Shown here piece after piece: positions 4,999 through 9,041 of a stretch of 64,000 nucleotides of DNA. The notes beneath the pieces are model-generated. The model made no database searches. It saw only the letters and a list, made by a program, of their open reading frames with translations, and was not told the DNA's origin. Within the stretch, counting starts at the first letter, position 1. Each line of letters begins with the position of its first letter. Made by a program: the position numbers and the translations under genes. The stretch is taken from NCBI GenBank assembly GCA_001777655.1, contig MFER01000013.1, forward strand, positions 68,322-132,321. The letters are read 5' to 3'. This stretch comes from Candidatus Doudnabacteria bacterium RIFCSPHIGHO2_02_FULL_43_13b (GTDB taxonomy: Bacteria > Patescibacteriota > Doudnabacteria > UBA920 > O2-02-FULL-48-8).

Positions 4999-5031
4999 GA
5001 AAAAATTCCATCATCAGATGGGATTTTTTCT
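4999..5031 (+). terminator. Rho-independent terminator
   Basis: AAAAAATTCCATCATCAGATGGGATTTTTTC hairpin followed by a T-tract. Confidence 0.6.
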
Positions 5032-5033
5032 TC

Positions 5034-5107
5034 TGGAGCGGGTAGCGGGAATCGAACCCGCGTCATTTGATTGGCAACCAAATGTTCTACCATTGAACCA
5101 TACCCGC
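5034..5107 (-). tRNA. tRNA-Gly (anticodon GCC)
   Basis: The reverse complement folds as GCGGGTA..TTGCCAA..GGGTTCGATTCCCGC..TACCCGC-T-CCA. Confidence 0.85.
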
Positions 5108-5118
5108 TCAAATATTTT

Positions 5119-5403
5119 TGGTGCCGCAGGTCAGAATCGAACTGACTACGCTCGCCTCTTCCAAAGGCTACTTGGACTATATCATCATCCTTTATAAAAA
5201 GGAGTTGGGCGCTGGTGCAGGGTTATTGTTGGGACTCACCTGCTAGTCTCTACACCTTACAGGAAACCTTCAGCCCTTCCTGCCTTGGCTCGGGATTGTC
5301 TTTTGCAAGAGTTCCCCCGAATTCACCCAATTTTTCTCAAGAACCATTACTGGTTCTGGCCCCAAAGATTTAGGGCGACGCTCTACCAATGAGCTACTGC
5401 GGC
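5119..5403 (-). tRNA. tRNA-Phe (anticodon GAA inferred) interrupted by a group I intron between U33 and G34
   Basis: 5' exon GCCGCAGTAGCTCATTGGTAGAGCGTCGCCCT; 3' exon GAAGAGGCGAGCGTAGTCAGTTCGATTCTGACCTGCGGCACCA. The spliced product is a canonical 75-nt cloverleaf with A73. Confidence 0.7.
5162..5371 (-). ncRNA. Group I intron (IC3-like, tRNA-intron type), about 210 nt
   Basis: P1 pairs exon CCCU with the guide sequence GGGG (U-G at the splice site). P10 pairs UCUUU with the 3' exon GAAGA. The intron ends in G. Core motifs CAAUCCCGAGCCAAG, GGUGUAGAGACUAGC and GAUAUAGUCCAAG match cyanobacterial tRNA-Leu introns. Confidence 0.7.
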
Positions 5404-5427
5404 GTGAAGTATATTATACATTATTTC

Positions 5428-5504
5428 TGGTGGACGCTAAAGGATTCGAACCTTTGACCTTCGCAGTGTAAATGCGACGCTCTAACCAGCTGAGCTAAGC
5501 GTCC
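5428..5504 (-). tRNA. tRNA-Val (anticodon TAC)
   Basis: GGACGCTTAGCTCAGCTGGTTAGAGCGTCGCATTTACACTGCGAAGGTCAAAGGTTCGAATCCTTTAGCGTCCACCA. Confidence 0.85.
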
Positions 5505-5508
5505 TAAT

Positions 5509-5594
5509 TGGTGGGGACGGAGAGATTTGAACTCTCACGCCTTGCGGCATACGCACCTCGAGCGTACGTGTATACCAAGTTCCACCACGTCCCC
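5509..5594 (-). tRNA. tRNA-Leu (anticodon GAG), class II with long variable arm
   Basis: GGGGACG..TACGC-TCGAGGT-GCGTA..variable arm GCCGCAAGGCGT..GAGAGTTCAAATCTCTC..CGTCCCC-A-CCA. Position 33 appears to be C. Confidence 0.7.
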
Positions 5595-5702
5595 AAAAAT
5601 CCCTCAAAGTATAAGTTAGATTGAACCATAGGTCAATTGTAGCATGAATTGCAGACTACTCCGACGTTTCAGTCGGAGTCCCGACCGCTATGCGTTCGGG
5701 AT

Positions 5703-6500: not shown

Positions 6501-6548
6501 AAGACTTAGATCGCAACGATTTAAGTCTTCTTCTTTTTGCTGAAATTT
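6501..6548. terminator. Bidirectional terminator hairpin AAGACTTAGATCGCAACGATTTAAGTCTT plus T-tract
   Basis: Perfect 8-bp stem followed by CTTCTTTTTG; lies between the GC-rich ORF and the convergent truD. Confidence 0.55.
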
Positions 6549-7950
6549 ATTCTTCTGATTCCGATTCCCTGGCCACGATAAACTTTTCTAATTTCTTTAA
6601 AGCTGGATCCATAGTGCCTGTTCCTAAAACCTGTTTAAGATCGTATTTCTTTGGATTAACTACGCTTGCTAATGATCCCTCAAGCGTAAAAAGATGAGAC
6701 AGAAAAGTCGTGGCATAAGCTCCCTTGGGCAAATCAAAGCTAATAATAACTCCTTCGGGTAAAATTTTGTAACCTAAAATCTTCGGCAATAATTTCGTTT
6801 CTACATATCTGAGTGTAAATCGAATAAAATCAAATCGTTTGATTTTTTGGGCGAAATCTAAGGGTATTTTATCCATTTCTAAAAACTGCCGATAAACCTC
6901 TCGATCTTTGGGGTCATTACTCAAAAGGAGAGGGAGGTTGGTGGGGACTTGAAATTTATCAGCAGCTGCCAATGACAGAACTTTATTAAATACAAAACTA
7001 CTGTAAGCATAAATCCACATTTTGACCTGTTCGGAAATGCTCCTGAGCGCCCCCGTATAATCGTGTCGAAATTCCTTCAAGTAATTTAAAAGTAATAACT
7101 CGAAACGCAGACTGAACCCGAATGGTTCATACAATTTTATTATTTCTTCCCAATTTCCGAATTGCTGGTTTGCCTGCTTCCGAAGTTGTGAAAAAAACGG
7201 CAATTCGCCGGGTCCTGGATCGCAAAGATAAGAACGCACCGTTTTTTCTTCCTTACCTTGTAGCAAAAGGAGTCCCCACCAATGACTCAGCAGGCGGTTA
7301 CCGAAACGCTGAAGCCAATAAAAATTCCAAAAACCCTCGGCCTGGATTTGAGTTAGACGTTGGACTAATTTTTCTTCATCAACCTGCTCTTGGGTTCGAA
7401 TAAATATTGTAAAACGATTCCCTAAAATATTATTCATGCTCATCGCTTCTTGGGCCGACTGGATATTTTTCAAATAAAAATTACTGTTAGGCAAAGTTTG
7501 GAGTTGATCTAGCGACACTTTACTTACACTTATTCGCTGTGACGTTAAAGCAATAGCATCTTTTACCCCACCATATCCGACTTGAGTTTCTTTGATATTT
7601 AGTTTCCGGGCCAGTTCCCGAATTGCATCGATGGTTGAAATTCCAACTTTAACCAAATCAGCACGAAAAAATGGAGCCGGTTGGCTGGAGACCGGAGACG
7701 AGTTAACGTCAATAGAAACTATGGTTCCATCGGACAATCTTTCTTCCACAATAAAATCAAAGGGATGGTATTTGATAAATCCTTTCACCAGAGGCTGGAC
7801 TGGCAAAACAATACCGACTCGCGTTAGTTGCTCTAAAATCTCTAATCCCTCTGTTCTTATAAATAATTCAGGATGTTGCTCTTTTTGGCTCGCCAAAAAG
7901 GCCTGTTCTTTCTGCCATTTCTCAAAGATCGGATCAAATAATTCGGGCAT
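6547..7950 (-). CDS. truD: tRNA pseudouridine(13) synthase TruD
   Basis: GYGGVKDAIALTSQR matches the TruD catalytic GxKD motif and YWLQRFGNR matches the RFG motif. Start set at MPELFDPIFEKW; the upstream part of the ORF is intergenic-like. Confidence 0.75.
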   Translation of the reverse strand: MPELFDPIFEKWQKEQAFLASQKEQHPELFIRTEGLEILEQLTRVGIVLPVQPLVKGFIKYHPFDFIVEERLSDGTIVSIDVNSSPVSSQPAPFFRADLVKVGISTIDAIRELARKLNIKETQVGYGGVKDAIALTSQRISVSKVSLDQLQTLPNSNFYLKNIQSAQEAMSMNNILGNRFTIFIRTQEQVDEEKLVQRLTQIQAEGFWNFYWLQRFGNRLLSHWWGLLLLQGKEEKTVRSYLCDPGPGELPFFSQLRKQANQQFGNWEEIIKLYEPFGFSLRFELLLLNYLKEFRHDYTGALRSISEQVKMWIYAYSSFVFNKVLSLAAADKFQVPTNLPLLLSNDPKDREVYRQFLEMDKIPLDFAQKIKRFDFIRFTLRYVETKLLPKILGYKILPEGVIISFDLPKGAYATTFLSHLFTLEGSLASVVNPKKYDLKQVLGTGTMDPALKKLEKFIVARESESEE

Positions 7951-8322
7951 GACCAAAGTATAGCCTGGTATGACACTATTGACAAAGCGGGGATTTTGTG
8001 CTAATATTATCAGTTGCGTACCCGACCCTATCCTCGTGGTAGGGCCGGGCAGGCAGCATGGGTCGCTGTGGTACATTTGCAAAAACTACCGGCAGTCAAA
8101 TTTAACTAAATTTGCTGCCTACGTGCTCGGTCGCTAAGGCGACCTGCGCAGGTTAGTTTTTGGCAAAGTACCTCGCTTCAGAGTAAAAAGTAAGTTCTTT
8201 ATAATATTAACTTCGCCTATTTCGTGGTCCCGCCTACGTGCAGGACGCAATACCCCGCGAACTAACACTTCGACGGGCAGGCAGGAGCCATAAAGTAAGC
8301 GAAGGATAGAAAGCATTATTCA
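7951..8322. other. Unusually long (372 bp) intergenic region with GC-rich repeated motifs; candidate structured RNA or regulatory region
   Basis: GGGCAGGCAG and CCTACGTGC each occur twice. GGCAGGCAGCA can pair with TGCTGCCT, and GGTCGCTAAGGCGACC forms a hairpin. Confidence 0.3.
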
Positions 8323-8954: not shown

Positions 8955-9041
8955 TGGTGGGCGAGGAGGGATTCCAACCCTCAATCCCTTGCGGGCCCAA
9001 GATTTTAAGTCTTGTGCGTATAGCAGTTCCGCCACTCGCCC
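8955..9041 (-). tRNA. tRNA-Leu (anticodon TAA), class II
   Basis: GGGCGAG..CAAGA-CTTAAAA-TCTTG..long variable arm..GAGGGTTGGAATCCCTC..CTCGCCC-A-CCA. Confidence 0.8.

What the first reader, a model, noticed from the sequence alone, without database searches (positions are those of the whole stretch)
5119..5403. Group I intron (about 210 nt) in the anticodon loop of tRNA-Phe(GAA), at the unusual U33/G34 position
The two halves of a canonical tRNA are separated by 210 nt. The intron starts AAAUCUUUGGGG, giving P1 (exon CCCU with GGGG, U-G at the splice site) and a perfect P10 (UCUUU with 3' exon GAAGA), and it ends in G. Its core carries CAAUCCCGAGCCAAG, GGUGUAGAGACUAGC and GAUGAUAUAGUCCAAG, which match the P4-P6 and P7/P9.0 regions of cyanobacterial tRNA-Leu(UAA) IC3 introns. 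Splicing yields the loop CUGAAGA (anticodon GAA, G37), A73, and a class I variable loop. Known bacterial tRNA group I introns sit in tRNA-Leu(UAA), fMet, Ile(CAU) or Arg(CCU) at 34/35 or 36/37. A Phe(GAA) host with insertion at 33/34 would be unusual, especially in a CPR-like genome.
Basis: partly seen in the sequence, partly recalled or inferred. Interest (0 to 1): 0.7.

Follow-up and report, generated by a model that had tools for sequence, protein, structure and literature searches.

The report
Self-splicing intron inside a phenylalanine tRNA gene
The finding is real: a 210-base self-splicing group I intron interrupts the phenylalanine tRNA gene of a tiny groundwater (Doudnabacteria/CPR) bacterium, but this tRNA, this insertion site and this intron family have already been described and are common in such bacteria.

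Summary
Confirmed. On the minus strand, 5403..5119 holds a split tRNA-Phe(GAA). The 5' exon is 5403..5372, the 210-nt intron 5371..5162 and the 3' exon 5161..5119. Rfam RF00028 scores 66.7 bits (gathering 50). ARAGORN in intron mode calls exactly these coordinates, and in-silico splicing gives a canonical 75-nt tRNA-Phe.

In 83 relatives the U:G pair at the 5' splice site is invariant. P1, P2, P3, P4, P6a and P7.1 covary strongly, and P10 covaries at one pair.

The novelty claim fails:
- 33/34 is the classical tRNA-fMet site.
- A Phe(GAA) 33/34 intron 77% identical to this one is already tabulated for another Doudnabacteria genome (Nakagawa et al., mSystems 2026).
- I found at least 100 more in CPR genomes and metagenomes.
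- The intron is homologous to a Patescibacteria tRNA-Asn intron shown to self-splice in vitro.

The window comes from Candidatus Doudnabacteria RIFCSPLOWO2_01_FULL_44_21.

The "IC3" label is only half right. Core motifs match IC3-type tRNA introns, but a P7.1 hairpin, an IA trait, is present.

Two modest extras: a covarying L6a-L7.1 loop-loop contact, and no P9 hairpin, with the intron tail pairing to the 3' exon instead.

Verdict: new member of a known kind.

The parts
5372..5403 (-). 5' exon of tRNA-Phe(GAA): acceptor 5' strand, D arm, anticodon-stem 5' strand, C32, U33 (32 nt)
   Evidence: ARAGORN intron mode; in-silico splicing; tRNA stems 98% paired with covariation in 83 relatives
5162..5371 (-). 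Group I intron, 210 nt, from the A after U33 to the terminal G (omega-G) before G34
   Evidence: Rfam RF00028 66.7 bits, E 1e-14; the U-1/omega-G rule picks loop position 2 (33/34) as the site giving a Phe(GAA) tRNA, uniquely in most relatives; structure 94.1% paired versus 79.3% in shuffles, 0/500
5119..5161 (-). 3' exon of tRNA-Phe(GAA): G34 A35 A36 G37 A38, anticodon-stem 3' strand, variable loop, T arm, acceptor 3' strand, A73, CCA (43 nt)
5359..5376 (-). P1: 5' exon GCCCU plus the first intron bases paired with the internal guide UUUGGGGC; U33:G wobble at the 5' splice site
   Evidence: U:G present in 83/83 sequences; neighbouring pairs switch GC:51/CG:31 and AU:47/CG:35 (helix 3)
5340..5357 (-). 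P2 hairpin, 7 bp, GUAA (GNRA) tetraloop
   Evidence: all 7 pairs show changes on both sides (helix 5)
5324..5330 (-). P3, 5' strand (UUGGGUG)
   Evidence: pairs with 5205..5211; two pairs covary, UA:53/CG:29 and CG:42/UA:35 (helix 6)
5205..5211 (-). P3, 3' strand (CGCCCAA)
   Evidence: helix 6
5254..5320 (-). P4-P5-P6-P6a domain (P4 UCGGGG/UCCCGA; P5 with GCAA loop; P6; P6a CAGGAA/UUCCUG)
   Evidence: P4 99.8% paired with 2 covarying pairs; P6a 96.6% paired with 7 of 7 pairs covarying (helices 7-10). P5 is poorly aligned because its length varies.
5244..5248 (-). P7, 5' strand (GACUA), part of the guanosine-binding helix
   Evidence: pairs with 5175..5179; all 5 pairs invariant in 83 sequences, so conserved but uninformative for covariation (helix 12)
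5175..5179 (-). P7, 3' strand (UAGUC)
   Evidence: helix 12
5217..5243 (-). P7.1 hairpin inserted between P7 and P3': stem GCAGG/CCUGC, conserved 17-nt loop UGAGUCCCAACAAUAAC
   Evidence: 100% paired; pairs switch CG:72/UA:10 and AU:40/GC:35/GU:8 (helix 13). The same helix is named P7.1 in the published model of the homologous Asn intron.
5274..5276 (-). GGG in loop L6a, proposed to pair with CCC (5231..5233) in the P7.1 loop as a loop-loop tertiary contact
   Evidence: CCC with GGG 70/70; CUC with GAG 7/8; UCC with GGA 3/3; CAC with GUG 1/1; ACC with GGU 1/1. So 12 of 13 variants are compensated, against a mean of 2.8 (maximum 9) in 2000 shuffles (helix 11).
5231..5233 (-). CCC in the P7.1 loop, partner of the L6a GGG
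5188..5203 (-). P8 hairpin (UCCUUU/AAAGGA)
   Evidence: six pairs form in the window sequence. Columns are poorly aligned across relatives because P8 length varies (helix 14).
5162..5174 (-). Short 3' tail (CAAGUAGCCUUUG) in place of a P9 hairpin. UAGCC (5166..5170) can pair with the anticodon-stem 3' strand GGCGA (5152..5156); omega-G is at 5162.
   Evidence: In 28 relatives of this subtype, a mean of 4.5 of 5 positions pair, against 3.6 (maximum 3.96) when exon strands are swapped; listing. The Rfam model aligned this tail plus 3' exon as its last hairpin.
5034..5636 (-). Probable four-tRNA transcription unit: promoter-like site 5636..5608, tRNA-Leu(GAG) 5594..5509, tRNA-Val(UAC) 5504..5428, split tRNA-Phe, tRNA-Gly(GCC) 5107..5034; terminator-like hairpin 5021..5008 follows
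   Evidence: tRNAs. Promoter and terminator are consensus matches only, with counts not above shuffled expectation.

Best explanation
This is a functional, HEG-less, self-splicing group I intron of 210 nt inside the tRNA-Phe(GAA) gene of Candidatus Doudnabacteria bacterium RIFCSPLOWO2_01_FULL_44_21.

Proposed mechanism (inferred from the anatomy):
1. The gene is probably transcribed with tRNA-Leu(GAG), tRNA-Val(UAC) and tRNA-Gly(GCC).
2. In the precursor, the 5' strand of the anticodon stem plus C32-U33 (GCCCU) pairs with the intron's internal guide (GGGGC) to form P1, with a U33:G wobble at the 5' splice site.
3. An external guanosine bound at P7 attacks after U33.
4. The 3' exon bases G34-A38 then pair with the guide (UCUUU) as P10.
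5. The terminal G of the intron replaces the cofactor, and the exons are joined to give the loop CUGAAGA.

The fold is a compact P1-P8 core with three particular features: a P2 hairpin with a GNRA loop, an extra P7.1 hairpin whose loop contacts loop L6a through three base pairs, and no P9 hairpin. In place of P9, the short intron tail pairs with the freed 3' strand of the anticodon stem.

What is shown: sequence, model score, splice-site geometry, covariation, and homology to a published Phe intron and to an experimentally self-splicing Asn intron. What is inferred: that this particular copy splices, that it does so without protein help, and that it supplies the cell's tRNA-Phe.
For: - Rfam RF00028 full-length match, 66.7 bits against gathering 50.
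- ARAGORN intron mode gives tRNA-Phe(gaa) i(33,210) at 5119..5403.
- The spliced product is a canonical 75-nt tRNA-Phe.
- In 83 non-identical relatives (redundancy-filtered at 93% among the fetched loci), the structure is 94.1% paired against 79.3% in shuffles. The covariation score is 0.434 against 0.148 (0/500 shuffles reach it), and it collapses when partners are slid by 1-3 columns.
- The U:G at the splice site is present in 83/83.
- P10 covaries with nucleotide 37: UA:47, CG:35.
- Loop position 2 (33/34) satisfies U-1/omega-G and gives Phe(GAA) in 96 of 104 motif-bearing loci with a split-tRNA call, and it is the only such position in most of them.
- The intron is 77% identical to the published Phe(GAA) 33/34 intron of GCA_016699995.1. 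It is 67-74% identical to the Asn(GUU) intron of GCA_016700035.1, which shares the P7.1 loop. That Asn intron was shown to self-splice precisely in vitro, and an omega-G to C mutant blocked it.
- No other tRNA-Phe lies in the 64-kb window.
- The related genome GCA_016699995.1 has a single tRNA-Phe gene (count 1 in the paper's table).
- No ORF of meaningful size lies in the intron.
Against: - There is no experimental or transcript evidence for this copy.
- P7 is invariant, so covariation says nothing about it.
- The lack of a P9 hairpin is atypical for group I introns and might reduce activity or create a need for a cofactor.
- P5 and P8 columns align poorly (72% and 64% paired), because of length variation rather than demonstrated mispairing.
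- The rest of the genome was not searched for a second, intronless tRNA-Phe.
Confidence: 0.88

Rival explanations
1. The gene is a decaying, non-functional copy: an intron that no longer splices, sitting in a tRNA pseudogene.
For: No direct activity data exist. The P9 hairpin present in the other subtype of this family is missing here.
Against: Every core helix is intact in the window sequence. U-1, omega-G and the invariant P7/J8-7 bases are all present. At least 28 relatives share the same P9-less architecture with compensatory changes, which implies purifying selection. No alternative tRNA-Phe lies in the window. In the related complete genome, the intron-containing gene is the only tRNA-Phe.
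Confidence: 0.04
2. The intron is functional but not autonomous: efficient splicing in the cell needs a protein or RNA chaperone, because the 3' domain (P9) is reduced.
For: There is no P9 hairpin and therefore no L9 tetraloop contact. The tail is only 13 nt.
Against: Compensating peripheral contacts are supported by covariation: the L6a-L7.1 loop-loop pairing and the tail-exon helix. Homologous Patescibacteria introns with the same P7.1 element self-splice without protein. However, the tested Asn intron has a longer 3' region that appears to hold a P9-type hairpin with a GAAA loop (read by eye). No intron-encoded protein exists.
Confidence: 0.1
3. Splicing uses other junctions and yields a different anticodon, for example site 6 giving loop CUAAAUA with anticodon AAA.
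For: In the window and a few relatives, a second U.../...G combination exists at loop position 6.
Against: That alternative occurs only in a minority of sequences, whereas position 2 fits nearly all. The conserved U:G wobble in P1 lies at U33 in 83/83. P10 covaries with nucleotide 37 under the 33/34 junction. A bacterial tRNA-Phe with an unmodifiable AAA anticodon and U37 is not known (general knowledge).
Confidence: 0.02

Closest known systems
Group I intron in tRNA-Phe(GAA) at 33/34 of Doudnabacteria genome GCA_016699995.1 (Nakagawa et al., mSystems 2026, PMC13011429, Table 1 and supplementary sequence table)
   Same: Same candidate class of bacteria, same host tRNA, same insertion site and same subtype (G37, short tail, no P9 hairpin). 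It has the same P7.1 loop and core motifs. The introns are 77% identical.
   Different: It is a different genome, and the sequences differ by about 23%. P1, P3 and P7.1 carry compensated substitutions, for example UUGGGUG/CGCCCAA against UCGGGUG/CGCCCGA. Neither copy has been tested experimentally.
Patescibacteria tRNA-Asn(GUU) 35/36 group I intron (GCA_016700035.1), experimentally self-splicing; classed as IA by the authors
   Same: Homologous ribozyme. It shares the P3/P4 strands, the P6a loop with GGG, AGACUAG, a P7.1 hairpin with loop UGAGCCCAACAAUAA, AGCGCCC and GAUGAGAUAGUCC. Identity is 67-74%. I also found Asn(GUU) 35/36 hosts carrying the exact family motif (L127, L186, L211).
   Different: The host tRNA and insertion site differ by two nucleotides, so the internal guide sequence differs. 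The Asn intron also has a longer 3' region that appears to hold a P9-type hairpin.
Classical IC3 bacterial tRNA introns: cyanobacterial tRNA-fMet (33/34), tRNA-Leu(UAA) (34/35), tRNA-Arg(CCU) and Azoarcus tRNA-Ile(CAU) (36/37)
   Same: Same mechanism and the same location in the anticodon loop. The tRNA-fMet intron uses the identical 33/34 site. The 24-nt core motif CCGAGCCAAG...GGUGUAGAGACUAG is shared exactly with many Leu(UAA), Arg(CCU), Met/Ile(CAU), Ser and Thr tRNA introns from Proteobacteria, Acidobacteriota and others.
   Different: In the Leu(UAA) examples read, the P3' strand follows P7 within 2-3 nt, so they have no P7.1 hairpin. Identity to one such intron is only 57-62%. The window's own tRNA-Leu(UAA) (8955..9041) is intronless.

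Membership tests
Group I intron (Rfam RF00028) | Covariance-model score at or above the curated gathering score | tested here: met
   66.7 bits against 50, E 9.9e-15, model positions 1-253 of 253
Group I intron (Rfam RF00028) | 5' splice site after a U that forms a U:G wobble in P1 with the internal guide sequence | tested here: met
   U33:G41 in the window; UG in 83/83 relatives, with flanking P1 pairs covarying
Group I intron (Rfam RF00028) | Intron ends in G (omega-G) and the 3' exon pairs with the guide (P10) | tested here: met
   The intron ends ...UUUG. P10 is five pairs, and the nucleotide-37 pair switches UA:47/CG:35.
Group I intron (Rfam RF00028) | Conserved core helices P3-P8 and P4-P6, supported by covariation | tested here: met
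   P3, P4, P6a and P7.1 covary. The whole structure is 94.1% paired against 79.3% in shuffles, 0/500.
Group I intron (Rfam RF00028) | P7 helix forming the guanosine-binding site | tested here: inconclusive
   GACUA/UAGUC can pair and is invariant in 83 sequences, so covariation gives no information (helix 12)
Group I intron (Rfam RF00028) | Guanosine-dependent self-splicing | not testable with these tools
   Shown only for homologous Asn and Asp introns of other Patescibacteria
tRNA-Phe | Cloverleaf with anticodon GAA and discriminator A73 after intron removal | tested here: met
   ARAGORN calls tRNA-Phe(gaa) on the spliced and the unspliced sequence. Acceptor, D, anticodon and T stems are 98% paired with covariation in relatives.
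Published class: tRNA-Phe(GAA) with a group I intron at 33/34 (Nakagawa 2026) | Same host tRNA, same junction and a homologous intron | tested here: met
   Alignment with the GCA_016699995.1 sequence: 77% intron identity and the same architecture
Subgroup IC3 | Core sequence motifs of the tRNA-intron IC3 lineage (P4-P6 and P7 strands) | tested here: met
   The exact 24-nt motif is shared with Leu(UAA), Arg(CCU) and Met/Ile(CAU) tRNA introns
Subgroup IC3 | No extra helix between P7 and P3' (no P7.1/P7.2). This criterion is my recollection of the Michel-Westhof scheme. | tested here: not met
   A covarying 5-bp P7.1 hairpin with a 17-nt loop is present (helix 13)
Subgroup IC3 or IA | Best hit among the subgroup-specific covariance models used in the published survey | not testable with these tools
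   The models are not available here. The paper reports that no Patescibacteria tRNA intron was assigned to IC.
Subgroup IA | P7.1 (and usually P7.2) between P7 and P3' | tested here: inconclusive
   P7.1 is present and covaries. There is no second hairpin (P7.2): only 5 nt separate P7.1 from P3'.

The most novel reading that the evidence does not exclude
The least ordinary reading that the data allow concerns architecture, not the host tRNA. This subtype of Patescibacteria tRNA introns may replace the usual P9 domain with two contacts I have not seen described:
1. A three-base-pair loop-loop contact between L6a and the P7.1 loop, which would clamp the P4-P6 domain to the P3-P7 domain.
2. A helix between the intron's 3' tail and the anticodon-stem 3' strand. 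P1 frees that strand by taking its partner, so a pseudo-anticodon arm would present omega-G and the P10 bases in its loop.

If both are real and undescribed, this would be a minimal group I design that borrows part of its scaffold from its tRNA host.
Probability: 0.3. Interest if true: 0.45.

Novelty: new member of a known kind. Interest (0 to 1): 0.27.

Why it matters
For annotation: default tRNA finders miss this gene. The Doudnabacteria genome would therefore look as if it lacks tRNA-Phe, which distorts completeness estimates for CPR genomes; Nakagawa et al. make this point about tRNA counts generally. The same fix probably applies to many CPR assemblies, given about 100 relatives in two truncated scans.

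For biology: the case adds a second Doudnabacteria example. Together with copies in Ryanbacteria, Saccharibacteria and other Patescibacteria, it shows that the Phe(GAA) 33/34 intron is widespread in the phylum rather than a one-off. It also shows that the same ribozyme lineage sits in Asn(GUU) 35/36 and Arg(CCU) 36/37.

It does not open a new question. The only fresh material is structural: the L6a-L7.1 contact and the P9-less tail-exon helix.

Tried and rejected
1. ARAGORN 'tRNA-Phe' calls among the genome hits. Nine of the eleven (alphaproteobacterial and one Bryobacterales locus) are mis-called tRNA-Leu(UAA) 34/35 genes with a long variable arm. I discarded them. Only L094 and L110 were true Phe hosts there, plus L038 and L040 found by BLAST.

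2. An alternative P3 partner. The UCCCAA in the P7.1 loop could pair with UUGGG. I rejected this because P3 covaries with CGCCCAA/CGCCCGA while the loop stays CCCAAC.

3. The intron tail pairing with the internal guide instead of the 3' exon. The outer tail positions track the outer anticodon-stem positions (CAGCU with GGCUG, AUGCU with GGCAU, UUGCU with GGCAG, GACGC with GCGUC). By my reading, P1 does not extend to those positions, which argues against this. It is not formally excluded.

4. Exact-protein look-up of the 511-aa TruD ORF found nothing, probably because the start codon was chosen wrongly. ORFs with ATG starts then identified the organism.

5. A literature search for a described L6a-P7.1 contact returned nothing relevant. 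This is not proof of novelty.

6. Williams 2020 reports 21 classes of intron-interrupted tRNA, but its table is an image. I could not confirm that Phe(GAA) 33/34 is among them.

7. The supplementary tables of Nakagawa 2026 were cut in storage, so the subgroup they assigned to the Phe intron itself could not be read.

Full report
**Observation**

The feature lies on the minus strand. Default ARAGORN finds six tRNAs in the window and skips this locus. In intron mode it reports tRNA-Phe c[5119,5403], anticodon gaa, with an intron starting at position 33 and 210 nt long.

Rfam's Intron_gpI model (RF00028) matches 5381..5152 (-) end to end at 66.7 bits, against a gathering score of 50 (E 9.9e-15). 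It is the only group I hit in the 64 kb.

Removing 5371..5162 joins ...GUCGCCCU to GAAGAGGCGAG.... The result is a 75-nt RNA that ARAGORN draws as a standard tRNA-Phe. It has loop CUGAAGA, a 5-nt variable loop, discriminator A and an encoded CCA.

**Source and context**

Eight window proteins are exact matches to proteins of Candidatus Doudnabacteria bacterium RIFCSPLOWO2_01_FULL_44_21, and to the near-identical RIFCSPHIGHO2_02_FULL_43_13b.

The split gene sits in a run of four minus-strand tRNA genes: Leu(GAG), Val(UAC), Phe and Gly(GCC). A promoter-like site lies at 5636..5608 and a terminator-like hairpin at 5021..5008. Both are consensus matches only.

Neighbouring genes encode a Wzy-type ligase, a Mur ligase, a bactofilin, a DAG-kinase-like protein, a TruD-family pseudouridine synthase and an S1-domain protein. 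The intron holds no ORF of meaningful size, so there is no homing endonuclease.

**What is already known**

- Williams (bioRxiv 2020) expanded intron-interrupted bacterial tRNAs from four classical types to 21. The paper writes the classical tRNA-fMet type as 'fMet.2Ug', meaning after the second loop nucleotide, which is 33/34.
- Nakagawa et al. (mSystems 2026) also state that 33/34 in tRNA-fMet is a well-characterised site. They found group I introns at nearly every anticodon-loop position.
- Their Table 1 lists 'GCA_016699995.1 Phe (GAA) 33/34', agreed by their own pipeline, ARAGORN and tFind. The supplement gives the sequence and the class, Doudnabacteria.
- They report that about 40% of Patescibacteria genomes carry group I introns.
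- They showed that two Patescibacteria introns, Asn(GUU) and Asp(GUC) at 35/36, self-splice precisely in vitro, and that an omega-G to C mutation blocks exon ligation.

So neither the site, nor the host tRNA, nor the phylum is unusual any longer.

**Relatives**

I ran a genome scan with a 24-base core motif shared by the window and the published Phe intron (CCGAGCCAAG N10-40 GGTGTAGAGACTAG).

Most hits are tRNA-Leu(UAA) 34/35, Arg(CCU), Met/Ile(CAU), Ser and Thr introns from Proteobacteria, Acidobacteriota and other phyla. The core is therefore that of the classical IC3-type tRNA-intron lineage. Nine of the eleven ARAGORN 'Phe' calls in this set, mostly alphaproteobacterial, are mis-called Leu(UAA) genes.

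True Phe(GAA) 33/34 homologues in this set all come from CPR or unclassified MAGs:
- L094: Patescibacteria group bacterium, also followed by tRNA-Gly(GCC).
- L038: Candidatus Ryanbacteria.
- L040: Candidatus Saccharibacteria.
- L110: uncultured bacterium.

I mapped splice sites by the U-1/omega-G rule over the eight possible loop positions. Of the 124 motif-bearing loci:
- 96 are tRNA-Phe(GAA) spliced at 33/34. Four more are Phe genes that ARAGORN mis-set.
- Three are tRNA-Asn(GUU) 35/36.
- One is tRNA-Arg(CCU) 36/37.
- Twenty are truncated or uncalled.

The window intron compares with known introns as follows:

| Comparison intron | Identity to window intron |
|---|---|
| Published Doudnabacteria Phe intron (GCA_016699995.1) | 77% |
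| Experimentally validated Saccharimonadia Asn intron (GCA_016700035.1) | 67-74% |
| An alphaproteobacterial Leu(UAA) intron (L019) | 57-62% |

**Structure**

I aligned 83 non-identical precursors (alignment A1; redundancy-filtered at 93% among the fetched loci) and projected a hand-drawn structure from the window sequence onto the alignment.

For the whole structure, 94.1% of cells pair, against 79.3% in shuffles. The covariation score is 0.434 against 0.148, and no shuffle in 500 reaches it. Both measures collapse when the 3' partners are slid by 1-3 columns.

Individual elements (unless stated):
- The U:G wobble at the 5' splice site is present in 83/83 sequences.
- P1 switches as a block between GCCCU/GGGGC and GGACU/GGUCC.
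- All seven pairs of P2 covary, and all seven pairs of P6a covary.
- P3 and P4 each have two covarying pairs.
- P7 is invariant.
- P10 covaries with nucleotide 37: G37 with C, A37 with U.
- The tRNA stems are 98% paired.

Between P7 and P3' lies a hairpin (5243..5217) that is always paired and has two covarying pairs. Nakagawa et al. name the same helix P7.1 in their Asn intron. In the Leu(UAA) introns I read, P3' follows P7 directly.

This probably explains a discrepancy. Yet the published covariance-model classification puts no Patescibacteria tRNA intron in IC and most in IA. I could not run those models, so the subgroup label stays open.

**Two features seen in passing**

1. A loop-loop contact. 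The GGG at the 5' side of loop L6a and the CCC in the P7.1 loop change together:
   - CCC with GGG, 70/70.
   - CUC with GAG, 7/8.
   - UCC with GGA, 3/3.
   - CAC with GUG, 1/1.
   - ACC with GGU, 1/1.

   So 12 of 13 variants are compensated, against a mean of 2.8 and a maximum of 9 in 2000 shuffles. This supports a three-base-pair tertiary contact.

2. Two subtypes. Subtype B has A37, the P1 pairing GGACU/GGUCC and a normal P9 hairpin with a GNRA loop. Subtype A includes the window and the published Doudnabacteria intron. It has G37, the P1 pairing GCCCU/GGGGC and no P9 hairpin, only an 8-13 nt tail.

   P1 uses the 5' strand of the anticodon stem, which leaves the 3' strand free. The tail is complementary to that free strand and tracks its changes. 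On average 4.5 of 5 positions pair, against 3.6 (maximum 3.96) when exon strands are swapped between sequences. In the window itself, 4 of 5 positions pair.

   The Rfam model in fact aligned tail plus 3' exon as its terminal hairpin. I infer a pseudo-anticodon arm that presents omega-G and the P10 bases in its loop. This is an inference, not a demonstration.

**Mechanism and rivals**

The best explanation is an active, protein-independent group I intron. It would be removed by the standard two-step guanosine-initiated pathway to yield what is probably the cell's only tRNA-Phe. Confidence is 0.88.

- A decaying pseudogene is unlikely. All helices are intact, and the architecture is conserved with compensatory changes in dozens of relatives. 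In the related complete genome, the intron-bearing gene is the sole tRNA-Phe.
- Dependence on a cofactor cannot be excluded, given the missing P9.
- Another junction is very unlikely.

**Verdict**

It is a new member of a published and, in CPR metagenomes, abundant class.

Practical value lies in annotation, since default tools miss the gene. Scientific interest is limited to the structural details above, which would need mutagenesis to establish.

Noticed in passing
window 5274-5276 and 5231-5233 (minus strand); alignment A1 columns 215-217 and 312-314: GGG in loop L6a and CCC in the P7.1 loop covary across relatives: GAG/CUC, GGA/UCC, GUG/CAC and GGU/ACC, with 12 of 13 variants compensated. 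This suggests a loop-loop tertiary contact. Neither of the two tRNA-intron papers I read nor one full-text search described it.
   Followed up: yes
window 5162-5174 with 5152-5156 (minus strand): This intron subtype has no P9 hairpin. [quoted passage not shown] The other subtype (A37, GGACU/GGUCC P1) has a normal P9 hairpin with a GNRA loop.
   Followed up: partly
L127, L186, L211 (tRNA-Asn GUU, 35/36) and L169 (tRNA-Arg CCU, 36/37): The same intron subfamily (identical P7 plus P7.1 motif) sits in other tRNAs at other anticodon-loop positions. This implies past movement between tRNA sites with retargeting of the internal guide.
   Followed up: partly
L019, L039, L046, L062, L079, L091, L093, L101, L107: ARAGORN in intron mode labels these tRNA-Leu(UAA) 34/35 intron genes, mostly alphaproteobacterial, as tRNA-Phe(gaa/aaa). 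Such calls inflate apparent Phe hosts unless the tRNA body is checked.
   Followed up: yes
window 8955-9041 (minus strand): The window's tRNA-Leu(UAA), the classical host of bacterial group I introns, is intronless in this genome.
   Followed up: no
window 5364-5368 (internal guide UCUUU); alignment A1 columns 44-49: The guide segment that forms P10 contains a Phe codon (UUU here; UUC in 60 and UUU in 23 of 83 relatives) that pairs with the GAA anticodon. P10 therefore resembles a codon-anticodon pairing extended by nucleotides 37-38.
   Followed up: partly
Nakagawa et al. 2026 (PMC13011429), section on structural subgroups, against loci L001-L120: The paper reports that no Patescibacteria tRNA intron is classed as IC. 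Yet the Phe intron shares an exact 24-nt core motif with many classical IC3-type Leu/Arg/Met tRNA introns. The P7.1 insertion may be what drives the IA call.
   Followed up: partly
window 6547-8082 (minus strand): A 511-aa ORF matching the TruD family of tRNA pseudouridine synthases (Pfam PF01142, E 2e-58) lies about 1 kb from the tRNA cluster. Its exact sequence with the TTG start was not on record.
   Followed up: no
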